A stretch of DNA of 64,000 nt, taken from NCBI GenBank assembly GCA_964470065.1, contig CAYYAR010000004.1, positions 26,329-90,328 on the forward strand. The letters run 5' to 3'. Of this stretch, positions 84 to 39,333 are shown in pieces; the first letter of the stretch is position 1; the number at the start of each line of letters is the position of its first letter. The position numbers and the translations under genes were made by a program. The notes under the pieces were generated by a model. The model saw only the letters and a program-made list of their open reading frames with translations. It did no database searches and was not told the origin of the DNA. The DNA is from an uncultured Verrucomicrobiota bacterium (GTDB lineage: Bacteria; Verrucomicrobiota; Kiritimatiellia; CAIVKH01).

Positions 84-160
<77 letters not shown>

Positions 161-202
161 ATGCAAAAGGAGAGGGGACAGTAAGAAACGATCTGTGTTT
201 TG

Positions 203-1384
203 TCAATCAGGGCGGGATGTTCGATTTACCAGTGCGAATCCGGCGACGGAAATACACAGCGCAGCGATCAGGATGGCGGCTTTCGCGCCCGCGGTGGATC
301 CGGTTACGTAACCGCCGGCGGCGCCCACGAGGGGGCCGGTGAGCATGCCGAGTCCTATGATCGACTCGTGCCACGCGCCCTGCTCGCCTTTCCGGTCGCT
401 GGCGTCGAGCGAATAATAAATGGACATGTAGTAACTCAACCCGAAGGAAAACCCGAGCAATAGGCATCCGGCAAGGGCGAGAACAACATGCCCGGAGAAG
501 AAAACGACGGCCAGCCAAACCGGTGCCGACCAAAGCGCATACAAACCCCAGCCGCGGTGATAATGCCATCCCTTCCACTGCGCGAGCACAAGAAATCCGG
601 TGGCGCGCGACACCAGTAGCGACGCGCCGAGCCAAATGGTCCATGGCTGGTTGAGGCCAAGGCGTTCGCCGAGATGCGGCGTGAGGGCGGCGAATCCGCT
701 GCCCAGAAAATAGGCAAATCCATTGGAAAGCCATGATAGCCGGGCCAAGCGGCGTTTCTCCCCCGCCTGCACCTCATGGCCGGCGTGTGCATAGTGCATG
801 GCCGTCTCGCCATCGATGCGGTGGCGACCGCGCTGGTGGCATATCCAGCCGAGCTGCAGGGCATGAATGCCGGCGGGAATCCAGAAAATCGAGTGGATGT
901 TCCACTGAAACACAAAGCCGCTCAACAGAAAGCCGGCCGCACCGGCAAATGACCATACCAGGTTGTAAATCCCGAGGCGCTGCGGCATGTTGAGTCGGCC
1001 GGGAATATGCATGCAGCCGGCCTCGAGCACTGGCCAGGTGGTGGCGATGAAAACGGCATAGAGGCAGGAAACCACCATCGGCATCCATCGCGCTTCCGGC
1101 AACCAGCCGAAGGCGCTTGTCAACCATGCGCCGGAAATGCCGGTGATGAGGATCCGGTTGTAACCGGCGCGATCACCGAGGCGCCCGCCGATTTGCGAGG
1201 CCAGCATGTGCGCGATACCTTGCACGGCCCCGAGAGCGAGATTTTCGATGTGACTATATCCGAATCGCGCTTGAGCCCAGAAAAATATGCTCAGCAAGAA
1301 GAGGGTTACGGCAAAGGCGTTGGCGCCTTCCACCAGATAGTAGTCGATCAGCCGTAGCGAAGGCGCGCGTTGTTCAGTACGCAT
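203..1384 (-). CDS. MFS family transporter (12-TM)
   Basis: ORF 203..1462; the start is trimmed to the ATG at 1384 (MRTEQ...), which overlaps the stop of the upstream gene. Hydrophobic multi-TM protein with Gly-rich loops typical of the major facilitator superfamily. Confidence 0.65.
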   Translation of the reverse strand: MRTEQRAPSLRLIDYYLVEGANAFAVTLFLLSIFFWAQARFGYSHIENLALGAVQGIAHMLASQIGGRLGDRAGYNRILITGISGAWLTSAFGWLPEARWMPMVVSCLYAVFIATTWPVLEAGCMHIPGRLNMPQRLGIYNLVWSFAGAAGFLLSGFVFQWNIHSIFWIPAGIHALQLGWICHQRGRHRIDGETAMHYAHAGHEVQAGEKRRLARLSWLSNGFAYFLGSGFAALTPHLGERLGLNQPWTIWLGASLLVSRATGFLVLAQWKGWHYHRGWGLYALWSAPVWLAVVFFSGHVVLALAGCLLLGFSFGLSYYMSIYYSLDASDRKGEQGAWHESIIGLGMLTGPLVGAAGGYVTGSTAGAKAAILIAALCISVAGFALVNRTSRPD

Positions 1385-2783
1385 TGGATCGCGCGAAGAA
1401 CGTGCGGGCGATGATCTTGAAGTCGAGAGCCAACGACCAGTTCTCGAGATAATACAAATCATAATTGATGCGCTCGTGAATGCTGGTGTTGCCGCGCAGA
1501 CCGTTAACCTGTGCCCATCCGGTTAGTCCGGGCCGGTAAAAATGTCGCCACATGTAGCGACTGATGTCTTCCTTGAATTGTTCGACGAAGTGCGGACGCT
1601 CGGGACGCGGACCGACCAGACTCATATCGCCTTTAAGCACATTCCAGAACTGGGGAAGCTCGTCGATGTTGCACTCGCGCATGAAACTGCCAATGACTGT
1701 TCGGCGGTCATCGCCTTCTTCTGCCCACACTGGTCCCGTTTTTTTCTCGGCATCCATCCGCATGGAGCGGAGTTTATAAATGGTGAACGACCGGCCTTTT
1801 TCCCCGCAACGCTCTTGCGAGTAGAACGCCGGGCCGGGCGAGGTGACTTTCACAAGGACGGCAAAGATGGCGATGATGGGCGCAGACAAGATCAAGCCTA
1901 TGGCGCTGCCGATAATATCTTCGAGGCGCTTGGCCAGTCGATTCCAGAAGAGATCAAGCGGCCACTTGGCGGTGCCGAGAATGGGAACCCCGTCGACGCT
2001 CTGGATCTCCATGTTGATGGTGAGCAGGCGGAATAAATCCGGCACAAAATTGAAGGAGATCATCGCCTTCTCGCAGTCGAGAATAATGGCGGCCATGCGG
2101 GCGTGAGGAAGGTTGCCGGGCGAGGACAAGATCACTTGCGACACTCCGCCAGTTTCCAGCAAGCTATGCAAGTCATCGACGGAGCCCTTGATCAAGTCGG
2201 TCGGGATGGAGGGATCCGGCGGTTCATGCCCCACGCGGAGAAAAGCAACCACCGCGGTGCGGAGGCGGGGCTCATGCTCCAGCGCATTGCGCAATCGGCC
2301 GGCCACCGGATCGGTTCCGATAATTACCACGCGATTGGAGACTCGTTTGCCGCGGGCAAGCAGAATTTCGATCCGGAACAAAACAAAACGGAAAACGACC
2401 ACGAACACGGAAATAGTGATGAAGGAAATGCCGATCGTCAGACGGGATAGGGGCGGGTTGAGTTGGAATACGTAAGCCAGCACGACACCGAGAAGAATGC
2501 CGATCCCGATTCCCCGGATCAGCCGGGGAATCCGTTCGCTGAAGGTCCCGAGTTGGGGTCGCGCGTAAAGGCCAAGCGCCTGGAAAATGAAACAAAAAAG
2601 CAGGGGACCCACGATGCTGGCATTAAAGTAGTGTTCGGTCGGAGGAAGCACATCCGGCGTGGCGAATATTCCACCCTGAAAACGAATCCACACCGCGAGC
2701 TTGAATCCCAAAAAAAAGGCCAGCGCATCCCCGGCGACGCCGAGCAACCCGCACATGACATCAAAAGTATCGCGACGTTTCAT
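1374..2783 (-). CDS. Polyprenyl-phosphate sugar-1-phosphate transferase (bacterial sugar transferase, WbaP/EpsB-like)
   Basis: 469 aa with N-terminal TM segments and the conserved C-terminal sugar-transferase block: KLRSM...DELPQFWNVLKGDMSLVGPRPE...NYDLYYLENWSLALDFKII. Confidence 0.85.
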   Translation of the reverse strand: MKRRDTFDVMCGLLGVAGDALAFFLGFKLAVWIRFQGGIFATPDVLPPTEHYFNASIVGPLLFCFIFQALGLYARPQLGTFSERIPRLIRGIGIGILLGVVLAYVFQLNPPLSRLTIGISFITISVFVVVFRFVLFRIEILLARGKRVSNRVVIIGTDPVAGRLRNALEHEPRLRTAVVAFLRVGHEPPDPSIPTDLIKGSVDDLHSLLETGGVSQVILSSPGNLPHARMAAIILDCEKAMISFNFVPDLFRLLTINMEIQSVDGVPILGTAKWPLDLFWNRLAKRLEDIIGSAIGLILSAPIIAIFAVLVKVTSPGPAFYSQERCGEKGRSFTIYKLRSMRMDAEKKTGPVWAEEGDDRRTVIGSFMRECNIDELPQFWNVLKGDMSLVGPRPERPHFVEQFKEDISRYMWRHFYRPGLTGWAQVNGLRGNTSIHERINYDLYYLENWSLALDFKIIARTFFARSNAY

Positions 2784-2913
2784 CTTTAAGGGACAATGTC
2801 GAAAGAGTAGCGCGGAAATCGTCCGACGACAAGCGCCCGGTGCCGGCTGTATGGGGCCGGGGCAGTTGTCTAATCCATAATCAGGCTTATCTTGTCACAA
2901 GGAGAATTAGATT

Positions 2914-3306
2914 ATGAAGGAATTCTGGAGCGAGTTGGGTGTGTTTGGTTTGCGCGTATCGTCCGGGTTGATGATGGCGACGCATGGTTATGCCAAGATC
3001 TTCGGGGGGCGGATGGAAAAGTTCACCGAAGGCGTGGATGCCATGGGATTTCCTTTTCCGGCATTTTTCGCCTGGGCAGCTGCCTTGTCCGAATTGATCG
3101 GCGGGGTGACGCTGGCTCTTGGTCTGGGCACGCGCGTGAGCGCGCTTTTGATTTATATGACCATGCTGGTCGCGGCATTTATCCGCCATGGTCAGGATCC
3201 ATTCGCCAAAAAGGAGCTCGCGCTGCTTTACCTTGCCATTATGTTTTTCTTTCTCTTGTATGGCGGCGGCAAGTGGGCGATCGACCGGTGCCGGCGCCGC
3301 GGATGA
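2914..3306 (+). CDS. DoxX family membrane protein
   Basis: 130 aa, 4-TM, DoxX-like (..ATHGYAKIFGG...LSELIGGVTLALGL..). Confidence 0.7.
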   Translation: MKEFWSELGVFGLRVSSGLMMATHGYAKIFGGRMEKFTEGVDAMGFPFPAFFAWAAALSELIGGVTLALGLGTRVSALLIYMTMLVAAFIRHGQDPFAKKELALLYLAIMFFFLLYGGGKWAIDRCRRRG

Positions 3307-3948
3307 TCAGGCCATGGGCAGATTGAGATGGTACAGGTTTGGTTGTTGCGGATCCTCCTCGAACCCCATTTTTGTGATGTAGCGGATATGTTTAGGCACG
3401 GAGCTGGATATTCTCAGTCGACGAATACCCCGGCGACGAAAATCCTCGTCCAGCGCCTCGCGGATAAGATAGCGGGTATTTTTGAGGTCCCGGTAGGGCG
3501 GGGTGGTGTAGTCGATATCGATCACCGCGCAATCCGCCTCGATGTGATATGAAAAAACGCCGACGGTCACGGCGTTGCGAATAATCAGCGTGTATTGCTG
3601 ATCGGGTGAAAGTTTTTCCGGAAAAAAGCGCGGGAAATGATAACCGATGTCGCGGGTGTAATAGCGGAAAAAATACTGCAGGTAAGGACTTTCCTTGTAC
3701 GTAACGGTGAGATAGTGGAAGTAATCCACCCGCTGGAGCATTTGGGCGATAAAAAACAAATCGATGCCGGCGATGACTCCGTTCAACACCGCCACCGGCG
3801 GGGAGCCGATCATCATGCCATATGCGGAAAATGCCACCGCGCCGACCAGGTTGACCCAGCGAAAATACCACAGGTTGGTGATCAGCAACGAAAGAGCAAT
3901 GATGCCGGAAGCTGCGTAGCCGAGCCATTCGGCGGGGGTAATGTTCAT
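3307..3948 (-). CDS. Hypothetical membrane protein (3-TM N-terminus plus soluble C-terminal domain)
   Basis: 213 aa; the N-terminal ~70 aa form three TM helices (YgjV/LAB_N-like), followed by an uncharacterised ~140 aa domain. Confidence 0.45.
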   Translation of the reverse strand: MNITPAEWLGYAASGIIALSLLITNLWYFRWVNLVGAVAFSAYGMMIGSPPVAVLNGVIAGIDLFFIAQMLQRVDYFHYLTVTYKESPYLQYFFRYYTRDIGYHFPRFFPEKLSPDQQYTLIIRNAVTVGVFSYHIEADCAVIDIDYTTPPYRDLKNTRYLIREALDEDFRRRGIRRLRISSSVPKHIRYITKMGFEEDPQQPNLYHLNLPMA

Positions 3949-4364
3949 AGTTATCCAATCTACGGTTGCGATTGATCACATTCAATCATCATTCCCATCC
4001 CAAGTTCCGCCTCGCCGATGGGGACATAGATGATGCAGCCGGAATGTGCTGCGGTTTATGAACCGCGATCGTGAGGTTTTCCCCGAGTGCGGCGGGAGGT
4101 GGCCCGGAGTACAAATTTTCGCCGTAGATGAAGAAGCGGTGGCCAAAAAAGACCATCCGCAAGGTGTTTGTAATCATTATGTTATAACTGTTACCCCCAT
4201 AAAAAGGTTTTTCCGGGTTGCCAACAACGAATCATTTCGTAGCCTGTTCTGATGTCCGGGAAGCGTGGGGCTTCTGGCGGACAAATTAGATCACGCGTTC
4301 AGCAAAACGATTCGTCAGCGTAACCCGTCGAAACGCTTTACTGAGGGGGAGAAAGGGTTGATCA

Positions 4365-5054
4365 ATGCAGTCGAGAATTAGTGAGTTCAAATTATGGGTG
4401 GTGATCATGTTGATTGGATCGATCGTCCTTTCGACCGAGATCGTCGTCAAGGCGCGCCGTCCTGCGACCGATGTTTGGCGCGAGATGCCAGCCGGTTTAC
4501 CCTCGGCGCCGGCGGTGGTTCCCGAGCTGGAAACCGTTGGCAACAGCGAGGAGCCGGCCGAGCCAACCGAGGAATTGATTACCAGTCTTCTCGTGGAATC
4601 GATCATCCAGATCGAGTCCGCAGGCAAGCCCGGCCTGGTCGGCGCCAAGGGCGAGCGAGGCCTGATGCAGATCATGGCCGGCACCTGGCGAGATACCACC
4701 CGGGACTTGTATGGCAAAACGCTTTCTTTTCACCGCGCCTTCGAGCCGGCGTTGAACCGGGAGGTGGGAACGGCGTATCTCGCCCGGCTCCATCATTTCC
4801 TTCAGCAGAACCGGAGCGAGTGGCGGGCCGATGAACGATCCTTGCTGCTTGCCTGCTACAATGCCGGTCCGCAGCGCGTCGCGCAGGCGAACTTCACGCT
4901 CAAGCATCTGCCGGTTGCGACGCGCGACTACATCGCCCGCGCCTCGGCGTTGCACGATCATTACCTGCAAGAACACGCGCTGCGATTGGCGCCGGCCGAT
5001 CGGTTCGCCATGGAAATCATCCAGGCCGATACGAGCCTCGCCCGCGATTCGTAA
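4365..5054 (+). CDS. Lytic transglycosylase (SLT domain), secreted
   Basis: Signal peptide, then the SLT catalytic block ESIIQIESAGKP...GLMQIMAGTW...AYLARL...CYNAGPQRV. Confidence 0.8.
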   Translation: MQSRISEFKLWVVIMLIGSIVLSTEIVVKARRPATDVWREMPAGLPSAPAVVPELETVGNSEEPAEPTEELITSLLVESIIQIESAGKPGLVGAKGERGLMQIMAGTWRDTTRDLYGKTLSFHRAFEPALNREVGTAYLARLHHFLQQNRSEWRADERSLLLACYNAGPQRVAQANFTLKHLPVATRDYIARASALHDHYLQEHALRLAPADRFAMEIIQADTSLARDS

Positions 5055-5137
5055 TTTTTTCCCTGGAACCGGCTTCCGTTCGCTCACCGAAAATCCTGTA
5101 GACGCGGGCGCCGGCCGCGTCCAATAATCCACCTCGT

Positions 5138-6436
5138 ATGAACGACACCGTCGTTTCCTGTCTGCGCGGCCTGCTGGGTATCGGTGCATTGATCGGCATC
5201 AGCTTCGCCCTTTCCACCAACCGGCGCGCCGTCGACCGGCGCCTGGTCATCACCGGGGTCTTGTTGCAAATCACCATTGCGGTGGCGCTGCTGAAAGTGG
5301 CTTTCCTGCGGGCGGGGTTCGAAAGCGTCTCCCGCTTCTTCATCCGGCTCATGGAGTTTTCCCGTAGCGGCGCGGAATTTCTGTTCGGCGGCCTGATGAA
5401 TCCCGACACCTTCGGATTCATCTTCGCCTTTCAGGTCCTGCCGACCATTGTGTTTTTCTCGGCGCTCACCTCGGCGCTGTATTACCTGAACATACTGCAA
5501 TACATCGTCTATGCCCTCGCGTGGCTTATGCACCGGACCATGCGACTCTCCGGCGCGGAAAGCCTCGCCGCCGCCGCCAACATCTTTATCGGCCAGACCG
5601 AAGCGCCCTTGGTGGTGAAGCCGTATCTGGCAAAAATGACCGCCTCGGAAATGCTCGCACTGATGACCGGCGGCATGGCGACAATTGCCGGCGCCGTGCT
5701 GGTGGCGTATGTCGCGATTCTCGGTGGCGGCGATCCCGGTCGCATGCAGTATTTCGCCACGCATCTGCTCGTCGCCTCGATCATTTCCGCCCCGGCCGCG
5801 CTCCTGACCGCCAAGATCATGTTGCCGCAAACGGAAGAGACCGATCGCGAGTTGTTTGTTCCCCGGCACCGTATGGGCACCAATCTGGTGGACGCCTTGA
5901 CCAGTGGCACCACCGAGGGCGTCAAGCTGGCGGTGAATGTGGCCGCGATGTTGCTGGTCTTCACGGCGATGATTTCGCTGGTCAATTATATCCTGCAGGA
6001 TGGCTTGGGCGCATGGACCGGATTGAACGAGCGAATCCGCTCCTTCGGCGATGGCCGCTATGCGGGATTGACGCTTCAGTTCATTCTTGGCGTCGTGATG
6101 GCGCCCGTGGCATGGGTGATAGGTGTTCCGGCGGGGGATTTGATGGTGGCCGGCCAGCTCATCGGCGAGAAAACCGTGCTGAACGAGTTTTATGCCTATG
6201 TTTCGTTTGGACAATTGAAGGATGCCGGCGTAATCGCGCATGAAAAAACCATCATCATTCTCACGTATGCGCTGTGCGGCTTTGCTAATTTCGCCTCGAT
6301 CGGCATCCAGGTTGGCGGCATCAGCGCCATCGCTCCTGGACAGCGAACCCTGCTGGCCCGGCTAGGCGCGAAGTCCATGATCGCCGGTACGATCGCCGCG
6401 TTGATGACCGCCTGCGTGGCGGGCATGTTGGAGTGA
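5138..6436 (+). CDS. nupC: Concentrative nucleoside transporter (NupC/CNT family)
   Basis: 432 aa; CNT signature FAFQVLPTIVFFSALTSALYYL...SGAESLAAAANIFIGQTEAPLVVKPYL...MTGGMATIAGAVL. Confidence 0.85.
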   Translation: MNDTVVSCLRGLLGIGALIGISFALSTNRRAVDRRLVITGVLLQITIAVALLKVAFLRAGFESVSRFFIRLMEFSRSGAEFLFGGLMNPDTFGFIFAFQVLPTIVFFSALTSALYYLNILQYIVYALAWLMHRTMRLSGAESLAAAANIFIGQTEAPLVVKPYLAKMTASEMLALMTGGMATIAGAVLVAYVAILGGGDPGRMQYFATHLLVASIISAPAALLTAKIMLPQTEETDRELFVPRHRMGTNLVDALTSGTTEGVKLAVNVAAMLLVFTAMISLVNYILQDGLGAWTGLNERIRSFGDGRYAGLTLQFILGVVMAPVAWVIGVPAGDLMVAGQLIGEKTVLNEFYAYVSFGQLKDAGVIAHEKTIIILTYALCGFANFASIGIQVGGISAIAPGQRTLLARLGAKSMIAGTIAALMTACVAGMLE

Positions 6437-6659
6437 GGTTTCCATGGGCGTTTACGATCGCGATTACATGCTCGAAAAAAAGCCGGAGAAGTTGACGCCG
6501 GCATCCACCAGTACTCCGCCGCGTCAACCCCCATCGCGCGCGCCGCTCTGGGCGCGAATCAAGTTCCGGTTGTGGTTATGGGTCAAGGGGCGCGGATAAA
6601 TTCCCCATTTGAAAATACCCCGGCTTCCGATAATCTTTTTCGCCTAAGGAATCACGTTT

Positions 6660-8321
6660 ATGTCCGATGAGCCAACTACCGCCGGGAAACCTTCGCACTT
6701 CATCCGCGATATTATTGCTGCCGATGTGGCCGCCGGCAATCAGGGCGCGCCAATGGTGGTGACGCGGTTTCCCCCTGAACCGAATGGTTACCTCCACATC
6801 GGTCACGCCAAGGCGATCTGCCTCGACTTCGGCATGGCCGCGGAGTTTGGCGGGCGCTGTCATTTACGCATGGACGATACCAACCCGGCCAAGGAGTCGA
6901 TGGAGTACGTCGAGTCCATCATGGAGGACGTGCGCTGGCTCGGCTTTGATTGGGGCGATCACTTTTATTTTTCCGCCGATTATTTCGAGCGGATGTTTGC
7001 GGTGGCCGAGGATTTGATCCGGCGCGGCAAGGCGTATGTGTGTGAACTGACCAGTGACCAGTGGAAGGAATACCGCGGCGTGCCGACGCGGCCGGGCCGT
7101 GAGAGTCCGTTCCGTCACCGCGCGCCGGAGGAGAACCTCGCGCTGTTTCATCGCATGCGTCACGGGGAGTTTCCTGACGGCTCGCTTTGTTTGCGGGCCA
7201 AGATCGATATGGCTTCGCCAAACTTGCATCTGCGCGATCCCGTGTTGTACCGCATCATGCGCGAGGCGCACTACCGCACCGGGGATGCATGGTGCATCTA
7301 TCCGATGTACGATTTTGCCCACCCGCTCGAGGATGCCTTCGAGGGTGTCACGCATTCGCTCTGCACGCTCGAATTCGAGGTGCATCGGCCCTTGTATGAT
7401 TGGGTGGTTGAACAGTTGGATCTGCCTTACCGCCCGCATCAGAACGAATTCGCGCGCTTGAATCTCACCTATACGGTGATGAGCAAGCGCAAGTTGCTCC
7501 AGTTGGTGCAGGAGAACCGGGTGTCGGGCTGGGACGATCCGCGCATGCCCACGATTTGCGGCTTGCGCCGGCGCGGCTATCCGCCGGCGGCGATCCGCGC
7601 GTTTGCCGCGATCATCGGCATCACCAAGTATGAGAGCCTCACTGACGTGGCCTTGCTTGAGCATTGCGTGCGCGATGAATTGAACAAAATCGCCGGACGC
7701 CGGATGGCCGTATTCAAGCCGTTGCGCGTCGTGATCGAGAATGCCTCCGATGTGCCGGCCACCGTGTCCGCGGTGAACAATCCCGAGGATCCTGCCTCCG
7801 GTACCCGCGAAATACCTTTCGGTCCGGAAATCCTGATCGAGCAGGACGACTTCATGCTGGAACCGCCGCCGAAATATTTCCGGTTGGCCCCCGGCCGATC
7901 GGTCCGCATCCGCTACGCGGGATTTCTGACCTGCATCGATGTGGTTCGTGGCGCAGACGGTTCGGTCGATGCACTGCGTTGCCAGTGGTCGCCTCCGGAT
8001 GCGGATCTCAAGGTCAAGGGGACGATTCATTGGGTGCCGGCCTCGGCGCCGGAAGCGCTGGTGCTTTTGTATGACCGTCTTTTTACCGTGCCCGAACCGG
8101 ATGCGGATGGCGAGAAGCCCTTTACGGAATACTTGAATCCGCATTCGCTGGAGGAAACGCAGGTGCGTATCGAGCCGTCGCTGCTGCAGGCCAAGGCCGG
8201 AGATCATTTTCAGTTTGAGCGTATTGGTTACTTCGTTGCCGACGGCAAGGAATTTGCCCCGGAGCGACCGGTCTTTAATCGCACTGTCACGCTGAAAGAC
8301 ACCTGGTCCAGGCAAAAGTGA
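6660..8321 (+). CDS. glnS: Glutaminyl-tRNA synthetase
   Basis: Class I HIGH motif (PEPNGYLHIGHAKA) and KMSKS motif (VMSKR), with GlnRS-like overall architecture (553 aa). Confidence 0.95.
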   Translation: MSDEPTTAGKPSHFIRDIIAADVAAGNQGAPMVVTRFPPEPNGYLHIGHAKAICLDFGMAAEFGGRCHLRMDDTNPAKESMEYVESIMEDVRWLGFDWGDHFYFSADYFERMFAVAEDLIRRGKAYVCELTSDQWKEYRGVPTRPGRESPFRHRAPEENLALFHRMRHGEFPDGSLCLRAKIDMASPNLHLRDPVLYRIMREAHYRTGDAWCIYPMYDFAHPLEDAFEGVTHSLCTLEFEVHRPLYDWVVEQLDLPYRPHQNEFARLNLTYTVMSKRKLLQLVQENRVSGWDDPRMPTICGLRRRGYPPAAIRAFAAIIGITKYESLTDVALLEHCVRDELNKIAGRRMAVFKPLRVVIENASDVPATVSAVNNPEDPASGTREIPFGPEILIEQDDFMLEPPPKYFRLAPGRSVRIRYAGFLTCIDVVRGADGSVDALRCQWSPPDADLKVKGTIHWVPASAPEALVLLYDRLFTVPEPDADGEKPFTEYLNPHSLEETQVRIEPSLLQAKAGDHFQFERIGYFVADGKEFAPERPVFNRTVTLKDTWSRQK

Positions 8322-9769
8322 ACCTGGACACATCCGCCGCGCACCCGCGCGCTCATGCTCCCGGCAGCTACCGGGAGGTCTTTGGTATCGCCTGGCCCCT
8401 GGTGGTCAGCATGGGCAGTTTCACGCTCATGCAGTTTATCGACCGCATGTTTCTCGCCTGGTACAGCCCGGTCTCGATCCAGGCCGCGCTGCCCGCCGGT
8501 ATTTTATCCTTCACGTTTGTATGCACCTTCATGGCGTTGTGTGGCTACGCCAATACATTTGTCGCGCAATACCATGGCGCCGGCGACCCCGCGGGGTGCA
8601 GTCGCTCGACGATGCAGGCGGTGTGGTTATCGGTCATGATCTGGCCGTTTTTGATTGTTTCCATTCCGCTGGGCTGGTGGTTTCTCGAATTGAGTCGTCA
8701 TGCGCCGGAGGTTCTCGCCGAGGAAATCGTTTATTTCACCTGGCTCACGGCGGGCGGGGTGCTGGTGCCGCTGGGCGCGGCGATCAGCAGCTTCTTCACC
8801 GGGCGCGGAGAGACGCGCACGAACATGATCGCATCGATGGCGGGCAATGTCGTGAATCTGGTGCTCGACTACATGTTGATTTTCGGCAAGTGGGGCGCGC
8901 CGGAAATGGGGATTCGCGGCGCGGCGATCGCCACGCTGATCGCCGGACTAGTGGCGCCGGCGATTTTGTTCACGCTGTATTTCTCCCGCCGTTATCATCT
9001 TATGTATCGCACCCGCGAACACCTCCGCATCGAATGGTCGCTCATGATGCGGCTGGTGCGATTTGGTCTGCCGTCCGGGCTTAATTTGTTGATCGATATT
9101 TCCTCGTTCAGTTTATTTATTTTAATTTCCGGCCGCATCGGCGAGCTTGCCCTGGCCGTGAGCAACATGGCGCTGAGCATCAACACGCTCGCCTTTTTGC
9201 CGCTGGTGGGATTGGGCATTGCCGCGGCGACGCTGGTTGGCCAATACCAGGGTCGCGGCGACTCCGCCACTGCGGCGCTGGCCGCGCGCCGGTCGGTAAC
9301 GATTGGATTGATCTACGTGATTGCGATTGGCGTCACCTACATTCTTTTTCCGCGATTGTATTTCTCCTTCTTTACCATGCGGGCGGAAAGCGGCTATTCC
9401 ATCGATGAGCTCATGGTGAGCGGGCGATGGATGCTCGTGATCATGGCGATTTGGGGTGTATTCGATGCGGTGAATATCATTCTCGCCGGCGCCTTGAAGG
9501 GGGCGGGTGATACGCGGTTTGTCTTGATCTATTCCACGCTGGTTTCGTGGGTATTCTGGGTCCCCGGTGTGCTGGTGATTGTGCTCGTGATGAAACTGGG
9601 GCTGCTGACCATGTGGCTGCATGCCGTAGCTTTTGTGGTGATTCTGGCCGCGGGATATGAGATCCGCTTCCGCCGCGGACGCTGGAAATCGATTCAAGTC
9701 ATCGAAACGCCGCCGCCACCCTCGGCGTCGCGCACCGGGGCCGAGGCGATGGCCGTGTCGGGCGATTGA
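8318..9769 (+). CDS. MATE family efflux transporter
   Basis: 483 aa, 12-TM, MATE/NorM-like. GTG start overlapping the glnS stop; stop TGA at 9767-9769. Confidence 0.85.
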   Translation: MNLDTSAAHPRAHAPGSYREVFGIAWPLVVSMGSFTLMQFIDRMFLAWYSPVSIQAALPAGILSFTFVCTFMALCGYANTFVAQYHGAGDPAGCSRSTMQAVWLSVMIWPFLIVSIPLGWWFLELSRHAPEVLAEEIVYFTWLTAGGVLVPLGAAISSFFTGRGETRTNMIASMAGNVVNLVLDYMLIFGKWGAPEMGIRGAAIATLIAGLVAPAILFTLYFSRRYHLMYRTREHLRIEWSLMMRLVRFGLPSGLNLLIDISSFSLFILISGRIGELALAVSNMALSINTLAFLPLVGLGIAAATLVGQYQGRGDSATAALAARRSVTIGLIYVIAIGVTYILFPRLYFSFFTMRAESGYSIDELMVSGRWMLVIMAIWGVFDAVNIILAGALKGAGDTRFVLIYSTLVSWVFWVPGVLVIVLVMKLGLLTMWLHAVAFVVILAAGYEIRFRRGRWKSIQVIETPPPPSASRTGAEAMAVSGD

Positions 9770-9802
9770 ATTTCGCCCCGGTCAGCGGCCGCGGCCACTG
9801 CC
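9692..9802. repeat. Direct repeat copy 1 (111 bp): the last ~25 codons plus stop of the MATE gene and 33 bp downstream
   Basis: Identical, apart from one mismatch (T/C), to 10246..10356. Confidence 0.9.
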
Positions 9803-10245
9803 TTGAGTTCAACATGTCAAACGCCTGCTATTGCAAGTCATTGAATGGCAAGGGTTGAGTTTTTGATCGGGGTCATTTCGGGTGTCTCATGCTATGTGGC
9901 TTGGTATGGCGACCAGTTGATCTGTGGCATCGTCCGTTGGCGCAGGTGATGGCTCGCGGCATCCGGCCGCATCGCGGCGGCCCATTTTGGGCGCTTTCGG
10001 TGTTGGGCTCTCGGTCGCGGACATGAGTCCAGCGACCGTTCGCCCGCCGTGAAATCGCCGCAAACTGGGCCTACCGCGATGCTCATTTCGCGTGCCGCGA
10101 AATGACCGGATGCCACTCGCGCTCACGCATCTATCCGCCGCCGACGGCGGATAGATAAAGAAAGCATCAACAACCGGATTCTCCGCAAGCTGATTCCCGT
10201 AGGCGTATGCTTGTACGTCAGGGTGTCCCATTGTTGAAGTCAGGA
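9803..10245. other. 443-bp non-coding insert between the 111-bp direct repeats; contains a perfect 12-bp-stem palindrome (10129..10156)
   Basis: No convincing ORF. Imperfect ~12-bp terminal inverted sequences (GAGTTCAACATG at the left end; reverse complement GACTTCAACAATG at the right). Palindrome ATCTATCCGCCG-CCGA-CGGCGGATAGAT. Confidence 0.5.
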
Positions 10246-10356
10246 ATTCAAGTCATCGAAACGCCGCCGCCACCCTCGGCGTCGCGCACCGGGGCCGAGG
10301 CGATGGCCGCGTCGGGCGATTGAATTTCGCCCCGGTCAGCGGCCGCGGCCACTGCC
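10246..10356. repeat. Direct repeat copy 2 (111 bp), a duplicate of the MATE 3' end
   Basis: See copy 1. Includes a second copy of the gene's last ~25 codons plus stop, with no upstream coding frame. Confidence 0.9.
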
Positions 10357-10466: not shown

Positions 10467-13400
10467 CTACGGCAATTTGACGCCGGTGCGGTAGTAGCGC
10501 AAATCGGCGCTGTTGGTGATGCTGAAGCTCAGACTGCCACCGTTACCCGGAACATCGTTCCCGATCGCGTTGGTCCAGTCGAGCTCGCCCCCGAGTTGAT
10601 GCACCCAGAAGACATTATAAAGACGGGCGGTAGAGCTTGGATTAATCAAAATAGTGGCCGTGTTGTTCGTGATTTGATTCAAAGCCGCGCGATTAAAGCC
10701 GGCCGGAAGATTGGTCGGATTCACATCAAAGATAAAGGCCTGGCCGTAGGTGATTTCACCTCCCGGCACGAGCGAGCCAGCCTCGTTGGTCGGGCTCACG
10801 CCGGGGTACTTGTTGAACCAGTCATCGGGTATGCCATCGCTGTTGCTGTCGGAGACGGCACTGGAATTACGGGTGACGGTGATGTTGGTGGAGGTGGTCT
10901 GAGTGCCCGTGGTCGTGATGATGTGCGACATTTCACCGATATAGACGTTGCGCGCGGTGTCGGGGCCGGCGTTGTTGTTGTAAAACTCCAGCCAGGTGAT
11001 GGGTCCGCCGGCGCCCAGCGTGCCGATGATTGTCCCTGAGCCGGTGCTCAATGAATATGCGTTATTTGTGCCGAGGGTCAGATTCAGATTTAGTCCGCTG
11101 TCGGTATGTGCGATAGTCGTTACTCGGCCTGTAGGTATATCGGTAATACGATAAAATAATTCGCTGCCAACGAAATAGAATCTGAAACGAACAGAGCCAT
11201 TGCTGTCTCGCATTTCAAAGCCTACTTGTCCGCCATTATCAATCGTATTGTTATCGAAGCGCACGGCGAAGCTGTCACCGGTGCTCATGGGGGTGACGAA
11301 CGAACGCGTCACCGCCGCGCGGCCACCGTTGTTGGCCCACAAGCCGAATCCCTTGGTGGCGCCGACATGCATGTTGGCGGGTGCATCGGCCAGAAACTGG
11401 CCGGCATTGCTGGCGCTGTGATTCATATACCACTCGTTAAATCCGGCGCCTTGTTTTGAACCATTGGTCCATGCGGTGTACAGCATGGCGGAGTCGGAGT
11501 TGGTGATGGCGCCGGCCACATTCGCGATGCCGGTGAAATCAACCTGATTGGTGCCATTATCCAGGTTCAGGTTGGCGTTCCACGCCCAACCATCGATCGA
11601 GGCGTCCAGGGGCCGGTTCAGTATGCCGGTTTGACCCGTCATGCGATTGGACCAGATTACGCTGGAGAAGTTATAGGCGGCGCGACCGCTGAAGGAGGCG
11701 AGGCTGTTGGTGGTGGAGGTGCCGCTTGAAGGGTTGAGCACTTGAATCGTGCCGCTGCTGATCGCGGCAAACGGGGTGGTTACGCTGACTGCGACGGAAG
11801 TAGCCGACAGGCCAATCGCGTTGGTGGCGCGCAGGTGATAGAGGTATGTGGTTTCCGGCTGCAGGTTGTTGTCGGTGTAACTCGTGCTTTGCGGCGAGGC
11901 AATCAGGGCGCCGTCACGATATACCTGGTATGCGGTGGCGAGCGAGGCGGCGTTCCAAATCAATGAGACCGATGAGCTGTCGAGATCTTGCACGCTCAGT
12001 CCGGTCGGCGCGGCGGGAGCATTGGTCACGGGCAAATTGGTTACGTCAATATTCCAGTTGCCGCCGCCGTTGTTGTCCCACACGTTCGCATTGTTGTTGA
12101 ACACGTAGCGGACAATGGTGGCGTTGGAGGGCACGGTGTAGGTGTAGGTCCAGATGCTGCCGGATTTGGTCATCGGCACGCCCGGTACGGGCGTCCAGTT
12201 GGCGGTGACGTTCTCGTTGTAACCATAATGAATGTTCATCGTGGTGGCGGAGGCGAGCGCGCGGCCGGCCGGATTATAGTTCACCGTCACGGATTGACCG
12301 GCCACCGGCGTGAATGGAACCGTCCATACCGGGCCGGAGGGCGCGTCGCAGTCGATGATGGTGGTGGTCCAGTTTTGTCCGCTCCGGCTGTCGATGTTCG
12401 TGCCGCTTTGGAACCAAACGATGGCGGATGGCGCATTGTCGGGCGCCGAGATGGTGTAGCTCCAGACATTCGGGGATGTGTTGGTCATGGCATATGGCGA
12501 CCAGGCGGAGCCATTGTTGAAGCTGATTTGCATGGTCACCGGGCTTAAACCCTCCAGTGGGCCATTGGCCGCCGAATAGGTGACCGTGATGGGCTCGCAG
12601 TCGCGGGGACTGGGAGAGAAGGTGACACTCGATGACGGGGTAAGGCCGTCGTTGGCAACCCAGACGTGTTGAATTTCGGATTTATGCACATTGCCGAGGC
12701 TGTCCGTGGCTTCGATATAATAGTCGATCAACTTGTCGCGGAAGTTCGGCAGCGAGGCGTCATCGATTTTTGCAAAATAGTAATCGGCGATTACCGGGTT
12801 GGCCCAGAAGGCGGGATCGAATACGAAATAGTCGATCTGGCCGTTGGCCGCCGCGGTATTGAGGGCGGTACGGGTTTTCGGCAACACGCGCTTGGTCATG
12901 TTGATGCTGACCCAGGCCCCGACTTCACTTCCGCCGGCATAGGTCTCGTTCTGATTGGAGTTGAGCGGATTGGTGCCGTCGTTGTCGATGCGGACTTTGA
13001 CTTGAATATTGGTGATGCCGTTGATGTCGTAGGCATGCGTCCAGATGTAGAACCACGAGGGCATCTTTTTGAGGAAGTTGTTATTGTTAATGTGGGGTTC
13101 GTTGTTGAACCAGCCGAACGTGTACCAGCCGGGATTGTAGGGGAACCGCTGCGGCTTCAATACGGTGGGCCCGACTTTGTCTTTGGCCTTGCGGGCCGGG
13201 GTCATGAAGCCTTGGAGTTTTTCGATCGCGTTTTTGGTGGCGAGCGCGGGTTTGACTTCGTCGTCATTGCCGAGACCGCCGTAGTAATTGAAACCGGAAT
13301 CGAGGCCTTTCAGGTAGATGTGCCAGGCGAGCTCGACATCGTTGGGATTGGTCCAGGTTCCGTCCCAGTCATACGGCGAGGCGATCTTCCATTCGTTCAC

Positions 13401-19676: not shown

Positions 19677-19811
19677 GGCGTGATCCTTTCGTGATTTAAC
19701 TGCCGCCACACTAGCAAGAGACCTATAGCAACTAATGCTATAGGTTAAGAATTAAAAAAATTATTTCTCTTGGTGCCGGTTTCCGTCCTGATTCATAGTT
19801 GGGCCCGTGAC

Positions 19812-20945
19812 ATGAGCACGCCGCCGTTCAATAGCCGTCAGGCATGTATCGCGCTGAATATGCTGGATCAAATCGGTCCGGTGCGAACGCGCAAGATGGT
19901 CGAAGCGCTCGGTTCTCCGGAGGCGATCTTCCAGGCGAGCGAGGACGAGCTCGCCCGCATTCCCGGCGTCGGGCGCGAGGCGGTGCGATCGATCATTGCG
20001 GACGGATCCGGGATCGATCCCGTTGCCGAGGAGAGAAAAGCGGGCAAGCAAGGTATCCGCATCGTGACCTGGATGGAGGCGGAATATCCGGATGCCTTGA
20101 AGGAAATCCACGACCCGCCATTGGCGCTCTATATACAAGGACAGATCCTCCCGGCCGACCGGCATGCGTTGGCGATCGTCGGAACGCGCCATGCCACGCA
20201 TTATGGTTCATCGGTCGCGGACCGGCTGGCCTACGGGCTGGCCAAAGCCGGCTTTACCATCGTCAGCGGTCTGGCCCGGGGGATCGATACCGTGGCTCAT
20301 GAAGCCGCCTTGAAGGCGGGCGGGCGCACCCTCGGGGTGCTCGGCAGCGCGATCGATCAGTTTTATCCGCGGGAAAATCTCGAACTGGGCAAGAAGATGG
20401 CCTCGCAGGGCGCCGTGATCAGCGAGTATCCACTCGGCCGCCCGCCGGACCGGCAAACCTTTCCGTACCGCAACCGCATCGTGGCCGGGATGACCATGGG
20501 GATCATCGTGGTGGAGGCGGGGGAAAAGAGCGGAGCAGTCATCACCGCGAACGCCGCGCTCGAGCAGGGGCGTCACGTGTTTGCCGTGCCGGGACGCATC
20601 GATAACCCGGCCGCACGCGGTTGCCATGGCCTTATAAAATCGGGGGCAAAATTGATTGAAACCATCGACGATATCGTCGATGACCTGCAGATGCTGATAC
20701 CGAAAAAGATTGACCAGCAGGCCACTAATTTGAAAAAGACCCCTGACGTCATGCTCTCGGCCGACGAGGCGGCGATCGTGAAGGCCCTCGGTGGCGGCGG
20801 TCGTCAGGTGGATGAATTGGCCCGCGCCTGCGGGTTGTCGGCCGCCCGGTTGAACAGCCTTTTGCTCGGCCTGGAGATGAAGAAAGTAGTGCGCACGCTG
20901 CCGGGACGCCTGGTGGAGATGCGCGAAATCATGCAAGTGGGATAG
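19812..20945 (+). CDS. dprA: DNA processing protein DprA (Smf)
   Basis: DprA Rossmann-like core IVSGLARGIDTVAHEAALKAGGRTLGVLGSAID...AVPGRID, plus a C-terminal winged-helix region. The ORF begins at 19770; ATG 19812 (MSTPPF) is preferred. Confidence 0.85.
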   Translation: MSTPPFNSRQACIALNMLDQIGPVRTRKMVEALGSPEAIFQASEDELARIPGVGREAVRSIIADGSGIDPVAEERKAGKQGIRIVTWMEAEYPDALKEIHDPPLALYIQGQILPADRHALAIVGTRHATHYGSSVADRLAYGLAKAGFTIVSGLARGIDTVAHEAALKAGGRTLGVLGSAIDQFYPRENLELGKKMASQGAVISEYPLGRPPDRQTFPYRNRIVAGMTMGIIVVEAGEKSGAVITANAALEQGRHVFAVPGRIDNPAARGCHGLIKSGAKLIETIDDIVDDLQMLIPKKIDQQATNLKKTPDVMLSADEAAIVKALGGGGRQVDELARACGLSAARLNSLLLGLEMKKVVRTLPGRLVEMREIMQVG

Positions 20946-20954
20946 CGAAGTATC

Positions 20955-23504: not shown

Positions 23505-23553
23505 ACTCCCCGGGGAGTTTGACGACCTGCGGTATTTAGGCTAGATTGCCCAT

Positions 23554-23799
23554 ATGAAAACAACCATTGATATTGCTAGCAATATTATGGAGCGGGCCAA
23601 GGGTGTGGCGCATGCGGATGGCGTAACCTTTCGTGAGTTGGTGGAAGAGGGACTTCTTCTCGCGGTTCGACAACGGGAAGTCAGGGCCAACAAGCCCATC
23701 AAGCCTGTCACCGTGAAGGGTAAAGGGTTGCACGAAGCTTTTCGCCACGGAGGCTGGGAGCAAATTAGAAATGCCGCGTATCAGGGACGCGGTGCATGA
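23554..23799 (+). CDS. Type II antitoxin (VapB-like)
   Basis: 81 aa; its stop overlaps the start of the downstream PIN toxin (ATGA). Confidence 0.65.
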   Translation: MKTTIDIASNIMERAKGVAHADGVTFRELVEEGLLLAVRQREVRANKPIKPVTVKGKGLHEAFRHGGWEQIRNAAYQGRGA

Positions 23800-24233
23800 T
23801 CGCCGTCGACACGAATCTTCTCGTGTATGCGCATCGCGAGGATTCGGACTTTCATAAATCCGCACTCTCTGCCTTGTTGGGTTTGGCTGAGGGTAGTCGA
23901 GCTTGGGGCATCCCGTGGCCTTGCGTGCACGAATTCATCGCGATAGTGACCCATCCATCGATTTACAGCCCGCCTACCGATCCAGCAACCGCTCTGGCGG
24001 CGATACGGGTTTGGATCAAATCGCCGCTGTGCCGGATGATCGGCGAAGGGCCCGGCTACCTAGACCGCCTGGAAAAACTGACGCTTCATGCCAAGGTGCG
24101 CGGCCCGATGATTCACGATGCGCGTGTGGCGGCGATTTGTCTTCACAACGGCGTGACGGAACTGTGGTCGGCCGATCGGGACTTCTCTCGCTTCGGATCG
24201 CTCAAGGTTGTGAATCCGCTTATTGGGCGATAA
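23796..24233 (+). CDS. vapC: PIN-domain toxin VapC
   Basis: MIAVDTNLLVYA...D...HD signature acidic residues of PIN domains; 145 aa. Confidence 0.8.
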   Translation: MIAVDTNLLVYAHREDSDFHKSALSALLGLAEGSRAWGIPWPCVHEFIAIVTHPSIYSPPTDPATALAAIRVWIKSPLCRMIGEGPGYLDRLEKLTLHAKVRGPMIHDARVAAICLHNGVTELWSADRDFSRFGSLKVVNPLIGR

Positions 24234-24312
24234 AAAATGCCCCGCGCCCTCTTGGGTCAGGTCATACGCATTCTGCCGGCGCGACTAATCTGCGTCCTCA
24301 TACAGTAATCAA

Positions 24313-24345
24313 AGGCTTCGCGGCGGCTGGGCCGCGAAGCCTTTT
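24313..24345 (+). terminator. Rho-independent terminator after vapBC
   Basis: GGCTTCGCGGC-GGCTGG-GCCGCGAAGCC (11-bp stem) followed by TTTTT. Confidence 0.6.
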
Positions 24346-24478
24346 TCATGGCCGCATTTGACGGTATTCCGGCTAGTCGATAGTCTGGACGCATGAAACT
24401 AGCCAATCGTGGCACCTCGGCCGCGAATTCAATCCGCTTCACGGTCCCCGGCCGTCATGCTGCAGGGGTGCCGATAGC

Positions 24479-37407: not shown

Positions 37408-37599
37408 GGATGGCAGTATAGCGGCCAGGCGGGGGCCATGGGATGTTTTTTTAATCACCCCGGCGTCCTTTCCAGGTCCAAACCATCTTGCTTCGTCCGG
37501 TAAACAGCGGCCGGCTCCCGGGCGACCTGCGGTTTCTGCTTGATGCTTTCGACGTCCCAAGGTTTTTGAATGCGCGACCCGCCGAGAAAAAAACAGACA

Positions 37600-38250
37600 T
37601 CCCGCAAATCGCTGACCTGCTGGAGTCGCTTTGAAATCGCCTTGGGCGACATGTCAACCGCTGACATTTGGCTCACCACTCAATTTTTCTACATAGTCAC
37701 GATCCAAGCCAGATCCTTGGCGCGTCCGGTGACACGTTTGTTTTTGGTGTAAGCGGTTTTCTCGATGAAGTGAACGGGAACATCCCCATAGTGCCCGTTT
37801 TCCTTGCCGGCCACCGCCACCTCCCGGGTTATTCCGGTAAGCGAGGTAATAATGTATTAACGAACCGGAGGCACGCCCAACTGAACAACCTGCTCCGGCG
37901 TTTGAAAATCACCCGCGGTCAGGCCCAGCGACCCAAAGCCAAAATCGTTCAGCGCCTGAAGCACGTGCGCGGCGTTTTCCGGGGTTGCGCGCACCAGCAG
38001 GTAGATGTCACCGGTAAAACGGGGCGCGCCGTGAAAGGCGAGGGCGTAGACGCCCATGACCAGATACTCAACCTCGCGAGCGTTATACAACGCGAGCACT
38101 ACTTTGAAGTCGGGCTGTGTTTCAATGAAATTGACGCCTTAAACGTTCAACCGCGTCGAGTCGTTGGGCCGGCGATTGTGCAAGCCAAAACGCGAGACTC
38201 ACGCGCACATCACCCTCGGAGCACAAGGGCACTCGTTTGATCACCGGCTC
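37600..38250 (-). pseudogene. Decayed type II TA module (MntA-like nucleotidyltransferase plus HepT/HEPN-like remnants)
   Basis: Minus-strand frames broken by stops. ...AQRLDAVERLRRQFH* then ...LAFHGAPRFTGDIYLLVRATPENAAHVLQALNDF (minimal-nucleotidyltransferase-like GS/ARG...DIDLLV pattern) then ...KENGHYGDVPVHFIEKT (HEPN R/KxxxxHxY-like). Lower GC than the surrounding DNA. Confidence 0.35.
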
Positions 38251-38513
38251 TATCACGCACGCAGCTTATCCGGCTAAAACAATCAGGAAAGGCGCAAAAC
38301 CCGGAAAGAATGGCCGCCGCGAATCGGCTGATCTCTCCTGACTTCAACAATGGGATTCCCCGACGTACATGTATTCGGGAATCAGCTTGCGGAGAATCCG
38401 GGTGTTGATTTTTTCCTCATCTATCCGCCACCTGCGGCGGAAAAAATTTAAACTGTTCTCCCTCAACATCTTGTGCAACAGATAAAAAATATCAAAAAAT
38501 CCTGAACTACGTA

Positions 38514-38542
38514 TTGACACGTAGAGGCGCTAAGGGTTATCA
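38514..38542 (+). promoter_or_regulatory. Candidate sigma-70-like promoter (TTGACA-N17-TTATCA) upstream of the island's first gene
   Basis: A -35 hexamer TTGACA with 17-bp spacing to TTATCA, ~90 bp upstream of the start at 38632, in an AT-rich region. Confidence 0.3.
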
Positions 38543-39315: not shown

Positions 39316-39333
39316 AATCATGGAGGAAAAAAT

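What the first reader, a model, noticed from the sequence alone, without database searches (positions are those of the whole stretch)
9692..10356. 111-bp direct duplication of the MATE gene 3' end flanking a 443-bp non-coding insert
Positions 9692-9802 (the last ~25 codons plus stop of the MATE transporter and 33 bp beyond) recur at 10246-10356 with a single mismatch. The 443 bp between them has no credible ORF. It carries a perfect 12-bp-stem palindrome (10129-10156) and short imperfect terminal inverted sequences (GAGTTCAACATG at one end, reverse complement GACTTCAACAATG at the other). Duplicating a gene's 3' end so that the gene stays intact is the signature of site-specific integration into a gene terminus, or of a MITE-like or remnant element. 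The alternative is a slipped local duplication. Either way, this is a recent structural event, because the copies are 99% identical.
Basis: seen in the sequence. Interest (0 to 1): 0.55.

Follow-up and report, generated by a model that had tools for sequence, protein, structure and literature searches.

The report
Small mobile element with long target duplication
The 443-bp insert after the MATE transporter gene is one copy of a small, non-coding, hairpin-rich mobile DNA element found in Kiritimatiellia-type bacteria, and the 111-bp repeat around it is host DNA duplicated when it inserted, which is unusually long for a bacterial transposable element.

Summary
Positions 9692-9802 and 10246-10356 are 110/111 identical and flank a 443-nt non-coding insert. 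The MATE gene stays intact.

The repeat is not an element-borne attachment site and not a slipped duplication. Two other assemblies carry homologous elements with the same termini (..TGAGTTCAACA … CCCATTGTTGAAGTCAGGA; imperfect ~13-nt inverted repeats) at unrelated sites. Each is flanked by a direct repeat of its own local host sequence, ~48 nt in L021 and 27 nt in L045. A fourth site is inferred from a spurious ORF (P0242). A truncated right end lies at window 38336-38441.

The closest MATE relative has a single 3' end, though its downstream gene differs, so it is not a clean empty site.

The family therefore inserts with long, variable target duplications of 27, ~48 and 111 bp. Its core is a ~60-bp hairpin plus two smaller hairpins, kept by 16-21 compensatory pairs.

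It has no ORF, Rfam, Pfam, plasmid or phage match, and no transposase was found.

Best reading: a MITE-like non-autonomous element moved in trans. In behaviour it resembles IS1634/IS1549 (repeats of 8-514 bp), IS1630, and "insertion with long target duplication". The enzyme and the intermediate are unknown.

The parts
8318..9769 (+). MATE efflux transporter gene, the target gene; it is left intact by the insertion
   Evidence: ORF list; Pfam MatE on the identical Logan gene; 3655 homologs
9692..9802 (.). Left copy of the 111-nt target duplication: last 25 MATE codons, stop codon and 33 nt beyond. It ends 2 nt after the palindrome CAGCGGCCGCGGCCACTG.
   Evidence: It carries T at 9756, and the closest relative also has T at that codon position.
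9803..10245 (+). The 443-nt non-coding mobile element. The + orientation is arbitrary; the folded strand may be the minus strand.
   Evidence: Homologs with the same ends in L045 (434 nt, ~90% identity) and L021 (533 nt, ~76% in the core); no coding signal; no Rfam family
9803..9816 (+). Left terminal inverted repeat, TTGAGTTCAACATG
   Evidence: Conserved in all three full copies. It pairs with the right terminus in 10-11 invariant positions.
9880..9890 (+). Internal box GGGTGTCTCAT, a direct repeat of the box at the right terminus (10221-10231)
   Evidence: Conserved in L021 and L045
9946..10126 (.). Long imperfect central hairpin (about 60 bp of stem; tip GGACATGAGTCC invariant), with a side hairpin at 10083-10105
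   Evidence: (I1). Cells paired 94-96% vs 32-44% with slid partners; compensatory pairs 16 (+) or 21 (-) vs 0-4. Coordinates.
10129..10156 (.). Small GC-rich hairpin with a perfect 12-bp stem
   Evidence: I15. It is conserved, with 2 compensatory pairs in L021, and is partly kept in the truncated copy.
10134..10245 (+). Right-end module shared with the second, truncated copy. It contains the invariant blocks CCGGATTCTCCGCAAGCTGATTCC and TCCCATTGTTGAAGTCAGGA.
10221..10245 (+). Right terminus GGGTGTCCCATTGTTGAAGTCAGGA, including the right inverted repeat
   Evidence: Identical or nearly identical in L021, L045 and window copy 2. A 24-nt exact match also occurs in L015/L046.
10246..10356 (.). Right copy of the 111-nt target duplication: a non-functional copy of the MATE 3' end
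38336..38441 (-). Truncated second copy of the element. Only the right-end ~106 nt are present, from inside the small hairpin to the terminus. It has no flanking duplication and abuts a low-GC stretch.

Best explanation
The insert is one copy of a dispersed family of small (about 430-530 nt), non-coding mobile elements in Kiritimatiellia-type bacteria. The family has imperfect ~13-nt terminal inverted repeats and a conserved hairpin-rich core. The 111-nt repeat is the target-site duplication made when this copy inserted 33 nt downstream of the MATE stop codon.

Shown:
- The ends are the same at independent sites.
- The flanking repeats derive from the host and differ at each site.
- The repeat length varies (27, ~48, 111 nt).
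- The element does not code for protein.
- The secondary structure is conserved.

Inferred mechanism: the element is non-autonomous (MITE-like) and is moved in trans by an enzyme that recognises both termini, most likely a DDE-type transposase. The two element ends are joined to the two target strands at positions tens to more than a hundred bases apart. Gap-filling repair then copies the interval onto both sides. This is the behaviour reported for IS1634, IS1549 and IS1630.

A long stagger that spans a gene's end leaves the gene whole, so such insertions survive selection. The role of the conserved hairpins is not known. They may bring the ends together, act in a single-stranded phase, or act on read-through transcripts.
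For: Same element, different sites (junctions):
- Window: 9803-10245, repeat 111 nt.
- L021: minus strand 2229-2761, repeat 48/49 nt covering a bidirectional terminator.
- L045: minus strand 886-1319, repeat 27 nt.
- P0242: 91% identical in the element part, with an unrelated 130-aa flank, which indicates a fourth site.
- Window 38336-38441: a truncated copy.

Other support:
- The terminal inverted repeats are conserved in all copies.
- The target is single-copy in the closest relative.
- The element is non-coding.
- The structure is conserved: 94-96% of cells paired vs 32-44% with slid partners, and 16-21 compensatory pairs vs 0-4.

Precedents for long, variable duplications by DDE elements:
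- IS1549 and IS1634, 8-514 bp, with no mechanistic model proposed (PMC2266710).
- IS1630, 16-26 bp, which targets inverted repeats (PMC3317919 and its reference 47; PMC2853133).
- The termini CCTGAGTT/CCTGACTT fit the IS1634-family end consensus C-----YT at one register. This is weak evidence.
Against: - No transposase, or any other candidate mobilising gene, was found in the 64-kb window, in the 8 kb of L021, in L045 or in the 21 kb of L046.
- No full-length autonomous relative was found, so the DDE step is inference by analogy.
- Typical IS1634-family members make 5-6-bp duplications.
- A ~60-bp hairpin kept by compensatory changes is not needed by a classical DDE MITE. It hints at a single-stranded or RNA phase.
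- The inverted repeats are short and imperfect.
- Only three sites have both junctions visible.
- The relative used as the 'empty site' has a different downstream gene, so it is not a clean empty site.
Confidence: 0.6

Rival explanations
1. Template-switch or target-primed insertion through a structured single-stranded intermediate (RNA copied by a reverse transcriptase, or ssDNA). A free 3'-OH in the target, for example at a stalled fork next to a hairpin, primes copying of the element from one defined end to the other. Synthesis then returns to the chromosome 27-111 nt upstream through microhomology, and so re-copies that interval. This would be a bacterial SINE-like element.
For: - The duplication length is variable.
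- There are 0-3 nt of junction ambiguity or microhomology at the right junction, and 0-2 variable nucleotides at the left junction.
- One truncated copy keeps one terminus exactly.
- The fold is strongly conserved with compensatory changes. Three C.A mismatches on the + strand are G.U on the - strand.
- In all three reconstructed empty sites a hairpin ends 0-8 nt before the right edge of the duplicated segment.
- No transposase was found.
Against: - No reverse transcriptase or HUH gene lies near any copy.
- There is no A-rich tail, promoter consensus or ribozyme, and no Rfam family.
- Terminal inverted repeats are the hallmark of a protein that binds both ends.
- The strand favoured by G.U pairs (minus) makes the truncated copy 3'-truncated, which is the opposite of classical 5' truncation.
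- The hairpin and microhomology observations rest on n=3.
Confidence: 0.2
2. Capture of a free linear copy of the element at a staggered double-strand break by host end-joining or illegitimate recombination. This is the same unexplained route as the 'insertion with long target duplication' described for restriction-modification gene units.
For: - The repeats are long, variable and host-derived, the insert carries no mobility gene, and here the repeat spans a stop codon. These features match those reported by Furuta et al. 2010 (PMC2853133).
- No transposase was found.
Against: - Those inserts are gene units without conserved repeated termini. Here the ends are the same to the base at independent sites and form inverted repeats. 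That requires an end-defining activity upstream of any capture step.
- The mechanism for restriction-modification units is itself unknown.
Confidence: 0.12
3. Remnant of a site-specific integrative element. An element carrying a copy of the MATE 3' end integrated by an integrase, and most of it was later deleted.
For: Duplication of a gene's 3' end that keeps the gene intact is typical of integrase-mediated integration (established knowledge). There is a 111-nt direct repeat.
Against: - The same element has entirely different flanking repeats, of 27 and ~48 nt, at unrelated intergenic sites.
- No integrase is adjacent.
- The element size is similar (434-533 nt) at all three sites, which is not expected from independent deletions.
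Confidence: 0.03
4. Local slipped or tandem duplication with filler DNA, or an assembly artefact.
For: The two copies are 99% identical and close together. The independent Logan contig breaks at the repeat, so the join was not independently spanned.
Against: - The 'filler' is a conserved element found with the same ends in two other assemblies made by other pipelines. There the repeats are short enough (27 and 48 nt) to be assembled through.
- The contig break at exactly 9802 is what a real repeat produces.
Confidence: 0.03

Closest known systems
IS1634 / IS1549 (IS1634 family, IS4-related DDE insertion sequences)
   Same: Both have short terminal inverted repeats and insert with long direct repeats of variable length from the target (8-514 bp reported; PMC2266710). 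The mechanism is unexplained. The end consensus C-----YT is matched at one register.
   Different: Those are 1.5-2 kb autonomous elements that encode a transposase. Most family members make 5-6-bp AT-rich duplications. Here the element is 430-530 nt and non-coding, carries a conserved long hairpin, and no partner transposase has been identified.
IS1630 (IS30-type, Mycoplasma fermentans)
   Same: The target duplications are variable and unusually long, and the targets are inverted repeats or hairpins (title of Calcutt et al. 1999 as cited in PMC3317919; 16-26 bp). In L021 the duplicated segment contains a whole terminator hairpin.
   Different: IS1630 duplications are 16-26 bp and correspond to the inverted repeat itself. 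Here they reach 111 nt and do not coincide with one inverted repeat. IS1630 has 27-bp inverted repeats and a transposase gene.
'Insertion with long target duplication' of restriction-modification gene units (Nobusato et al. 2000; Furuta et al. 2010, PMC2853133)
   Same: Both show long (>30 bp), variable, host-derived direct repeats around an insert without mobility genes. The repeats often span a start or stop codon, so the target gene stays intact.
   Different: Those inserts are unique multi-kb gene units without conserved termini. Here a small repeated element has the same ends and inverted repeats at each site.
Prokaryotic MITEs (for example Correia, ERIC, RUP)
   Same: These are also small, non-coding, dispersed elements with terminal inverted repeats that can fold into a long hairpin.
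   Different: Known MITEs make short duplications of fixed length (2-10 bp) set by their parent transposase. This family makes 27-111 bp.
Integrase-mediated elements and their deleted remnants (CIMEs), which duplicate a gene's 3' end
   Same: Both give a direct repeat of a gene's 3' end that leaves the gene intact.
   Different: There the repeat is an element-borne att core, identical at every integration. Here it differs in sequence and length at every site.

Membership tests
Prokaryotic MITE (non-autonomous inverted-repeat element) | Small size and no coding capacity | tested here: met
   Size 434-533 nt. The longest ORF has low GC3, its frame is not conserved, and it hits no Pfam or NCBIfam family.
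Prokaryotic MITE (non-autonomous inverted-repeat element) | Terminal inverted repeats | tested here: met
   (C)(C/T)TGAGTTCAACA at the left against TGTTGAA(G/T)TCAGG at the right. 10-11 invariant complementary positions in all three full copies.
Prokaryotic MITE (non-autonomous inverted-repeat element) | Host-derived target duplication that differs between copies | tested here: met
   111, 48/49 and 27 nt, all unrelated sequences. The lengths are far outside the usual 2-10 bp.
Prokaryotic MITE (non-autonomous inverted-repeat element) | Multiple dispersed copies | tested here: met
   Three full copies with visible junctions in three assemblies, a fourth site through P0242, and one truncated copy in the window. 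Copy number per genome is unknown.
Prokaryotic MITE (non-autonomous inverted-repeat element) | A parent autonomous element with matching termini | not testable with these tools
   None is present in any held sequence.
IS1634 family | DDE transposase of the IS1634 clade, here acting in trans | not testable with these tools
   No transposase lies in the window or the loci. The source genome is not searchable.
IS1634 family | Long direct repeats of variable length, as for IS1634 and IS1549 | tested here: met
   27-111 nt against the 8-514 bp reported. Most family members give 5-6 bp.
IS1634 family | Terminal consensus C-----YT | tested here: inconclusive
   CCTGAGTT and CCTGACTT fit at one register. 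The chance expectation is about 1/32 per register, and the exact first base is ambiguous.
   Three sites have three unrelated repeats.
   The only recombinase is a XerC/D type at 24479-25429, beside dprA and topA.
Insertion with long target duplication (restriction-modification units) | Variable target duplication longer than 30 bp, with no mobility gene in the insert | tested here: met
   111 and ~48 nt, with one site at 27 nt. The criteria come from PMC2853133.
Insertion with long target duplication (restriction-modification units) | The insert is a unique gene unit (R and M genes) | tested here: not met
   The insert is a non-coding repeated element with conserved termini.
Known RNA families (Rfam), including group II introns, retron-type RNAs and transposon guide RNAs | Match to a curated covariance model | tested here: not met
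   No hit at gathering score. The permissive scans of all three copies gave only far sub-threshold hits; the best was isrG at 20.6 bits against a cut-off of 100.
Retron or diversity-generating retroelement | Adjacent reverse transcriptase. For a DGR, also adenine-specific differences between the repeats. | tested here: not met
   Pfam scans covered 20 of the window's ~53 ORFs of at least 90 aa and found no reverse transcriptase. The Logan annotation of the genes upstream of the insert lists none either. The single repeat difference is T vs C.

The most novel reading that the evidence does not exclude
The family may be a new class of bacterial non-autonomous element. In this reading it inserts through a structured single-stranded (RNA or ssDNA) intermediate, by priming from a chromosomal 3' end next to a hairpin and switching template back upstream. 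That would be a SINE-like, target-primed route not known in bacteria. It would also give a first tractable model, with defined ends, for the long-unexplained 'insertion with long target duplication'.
Probability: 0.15. Interest if true: 0.85.

Novelty: new variant of a known kind. Interest (0 to 1): 0.58.

Why it matters
Long target duplications of variable length are rare in bacteria and remain unexplained. IS1634 and IS1549 have had no mechanistic model since 1998-99, and restriction-modification units inserted with long duplications have had none since 2000.

This element is small and non-coding, has exact conserved ends, and has a structured core kept by compensatory changes. It shows the same behaviour at several independent sites, which makes the phenomenon easy to survey computationally and to test experimentally.

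It also shows how an insertion can land on a gene's end without inactivating the gene. Finally, it documents a mobile-element family in Kiritimatiellia, a phylum whose mobile DNA is hardly described.

Tried and rejected
RNA and tRNA scans:
- Rfam at gathering score on the whole window, and permissive scans on all three copies, gave nothing.
- No tRNA or tmRNA lies near the site.

Searches for more copies:
- The exact 22-mer of the internal block found 0 hits in representative genomes.
- The 18-mer of the terminus found 17 hits. Only L021 and L015 are real.
- The 19-mer metagenome scan gave 19 hits, none extending beyond the seed region.
- Four viral-contig scans gave only chance hits; L047 was checked by eye.
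- Plasmid and phage blastn in distant mode gave no match.
- An nhmmer profile and a covariance model of the core, run over all held DNA, found no further copies.

L015/L046 was followed up using the last large protein search. It shares only the terminal 24 nt, which sit inside a 60-aa ORF, with a weak left-end-like motif 22 nt upstream. No transposase is nearby, so the result is inconclusive.

Failed look-ups:
- Exact-protein look-ups found no record for the insert ORF, the GH57-like neighbour or P0242.
- The original IS1634 and IS1549 papers are not held, and the supplement showing the family's termini is images only.

Ideas considered and rejected:
- DGR template/variable repeat pair: no reverse transcriptase, and the single difference is T/C.
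- TnpB/IscB-type guide RNA with the flank as guide: it would target the intact left junction of its own locus, and there is no Rfam match.
- Integron attC: the ends loosely resemble the R''/R' cores, but the element is far too long, and tyrosine recombination makes no duplication.
- IS110 bridge-RNA element: it makes no long duplication, and near-identical cores sit at unrelated targets.
- Inversion between the two window copies as the cause of the kinase/GlnS separation: the geometry does not fit.
Full report
**Observation.** Positions 9692-9802 recur at 10246-10356 with 110/111 identity. The single difference is 9756 T vs 10310 C, and identity stops sharply on both sides. The MATE gene is 8318-9769 (Pfam MatE). 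The repeat therefore holds its last 25 codons, the stop codon and 33 nt beyond, and the gene is intact. An independent Logan assembly of the same sequence (L001) covers window 114-9802, so it stops at the last base of repeat copy 1. That is what a real repeat does to a short-read assembly.

- The right-hand 112 nt of the insert recur at 38336-38441 on the minus strand. Identity is 82%, there are two perfectly conserved blocks, and the 3' edge at ...GTCAGGA is sharp.
- The insert folds far better than shuffled controls on both strands (z = -7.3 and -6.9). The main reason is a ~180-nt imperfect hairpin at 9946-10126.

**Relatives of the locus.** The source is a Kiritimatiellia-type bacterium, judging by names. 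The closest MATE relative is 92% identical in protein and 82% in DNA across this region (L002, L003). It has one copy of the 3' end, followed directly by a serC-like gene. More distant relatives (L004-L008) also lack a duplication. The duplication and insert are therefore specific to this lineage. No exact empty site with the same downstream gene was available.

**The key result: the same element elsewhere.**
- A scan of representative genomes with the 18-nt terminus found L021, a Kiritimatiellia MAG.
- A protein search with the insert's spurious 114-aa ORF found P0121, and through it L045, a JGI metagenome contig.
- Both carry homologous elements with the same termini: 533 nt and 434 nt.
- Both are flanked by direct repeats of their own local host sequence. 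In L021 the repeat is 48/49 nt and covers a bidirectional terminator between convergent genes. In L045 it is 27 nt and lies between a hicBA cassette and a LivK-like gene.
- Each repeat pair has 1-2 differences.
- The right junction shows 0, 3 and 1 nt of ambiguity. By inspection of the junction sequences in that call, 0-2 variable nucleotides precede the conserved TGAGTTC at the left junction.
- An exhaustive HMMER search with the same ORF found one more copy, P0242. It is 91% identical in the element part, and its 130-aa upstream flank matches nothing held, so it marks a fourth site.
- The flanking repeats are therefore target duplications of 27, ~48 and 111 nt. They are not att sites carried by the element.

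**Anatomy of the family**.
- Left terminus: (C)(C/T)TGAGTTCAACA.
- An internal GGGTGTCyCAT box (window 9880).
- The long central hairpin (9946-10126) with an invariant tip GGACATGAGTCC, and a side hairpin (10083-10105).
- The small GC hairpin (10129-10156).
- A segment that is unrelated between subfamilies: ~55 nt in the window and ~190 nt in L021.
- The terminal 25 nt GGGTGTCCCATTGTTGAAGTCAGGA.

On the three-copy alignment, 94.4% (+) or 96.4% (-) of cells form pairs, against 32-44% when partners are slid. There are 16 (+) or 21 (-) pairs with compensatory changes, against 0-4 when slid. Three C.A mismatches on the + strand are G.U on the - strand. This is a weak hint that the - strand is the folded one.

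**No coding or known-RNA signal.** The element is non-coding. The ORF frame is broken by 1-nt indels in L021. No ORF matches a Pfam or NCBIfam family. No Rfam family matches any copy. The promoter and terminator scan found nothing inside the element.

**What moves it.** Nothing nearby can. The only recombinase in the window is a XerC/D-type enzyme next to dprA and topA. No transposase, integrase or reverse transcriptase appears in L021, L045 or L046. Further copies were not found in held DNA with an nhmmer profile or a covariance model, in viral contigs, or in plasmid and phage records. L015/L046 share only the terminal 24 nt, which is unlikely by chance given an 18-nt seed, but show no other homology.

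**Comparison with what is known.**
[quoted passage not shown] The family's end consensus is C-----YT, and typical members make 5-6-bp duplications (PMC2266710; PMC8024623).
[quoted passage not shown] The repeats often span start or stop codons, so the target gene is left intact (PMC2853133).

The present element behaves like all three. It differs from each in being a small non-coding repeated element with exact conserved termini and a structured core.

**Mechanism.**
- Shown: this is a mobile element with defined ends, and each copy is flanked by a target duplication of variable length.
- Inferred, best supported (about 0.6 together with the identity claim): trans-mobilisation by an end-binding enzyme, probably a DDE transposase. 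Its two strand transfers land tens to more than a hundred bases apart, and repair synthesis then duplicates the interval.
- Rival 1 (0.2): a target-primed or template-switch route through a folded single-stranded intermediate. It is favoured by the conserved structure, the junction microhomology, the truncated copy, and a hairpin ending 0-8 nt before the right edge of the duplicated segment at all three sites (n=3). The inverted repeats and the absence of any reverse transcriptase count against it.
- Rival 2 (0.12): capture of a free linear copy at a staggered break.
- Site-specific integration, slipped duplication and assembly artefact are each about 0.03.

**Verdict.** The feature is a new variant of a known kind: a MITE-like element that makes long, variable target duplications. 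Interest is moderate to fairly high, because it offers a compact system with defined ends for an unexplained insertion mode. Its mobilising enzyme remains unidentified.

Noticed in passing
window 38336-40400: The truncated element copy abuts a low-GC stretch (40-50% GC vs 59% for the window). That stretch encodes a signal-peptide protein and a PEP-CTERM protein (38611-39315, 39334-39942). On its other side lie decayed gene fragments, for example an 80-aa ORF at 37857-38099 that has no Pfam hit and looks like a gene fragment. This may be a horizontally acquired island that disrupted the element.
   Followed up: partly
L045 1411-1560 and 2175-2324: A hicB-hicA toxin-antitoxin cassette is flanked by 150-nt direct repeats that are 91% identical and rich in internal hairpins. 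It lies right next to the element copy. This could be a second case of insertion with long target duplication, or a cassette-array repeat.
   Followed up: no
L046 ~12005-12052 (same region as L015 1-71): The 24-nt right terminus GGTGTCCCATTGTTGAAGTCAGGA sits inside a 60-aa ORF between nifU and a radical-SAM gene, in an unclassified 1.47-Mb MAG contig. A left-end-like CTTGAGTTAATAATGG lies 22 nt upstream. This may be a relic made of two inverted repeats and a spacer.
   Followed up: partly
window 35749-37560 vs L005 1359-3014: The CHASE/HisKA_3 sensor kinase is 66% identical over its full length to the kinase that lies directly upstream of GlnS-MATE in the more distant relatives L005-L008. In the window it is 27 kb from GlnS and next to element copy 2. 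The ancestral adjacency has been rearranged.
   Followed up: partly
window 84-160 (tRNA-Met, minus strand); L001 start = window 114: The independent Logan contig starts inside the tRNA-Met gene. This is another assembly break, and it may mark a repeated tRNA or an integration site.
   Followed up: no
L002 and L003 ends: Contigs of the 92% relative come from two different samples, and both end at exactly the same base, 216 nt after the MATE stop and inside a serC-like gene. This suggests a shared branch point, either a repeat or a strain variant.
   Followed up: no
window 19770-25429: A dprA - topA - xerC/D-type recombinase cluster. It is ordinary housekeeping synteny and is not linked to the element.
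   Followed up: yes
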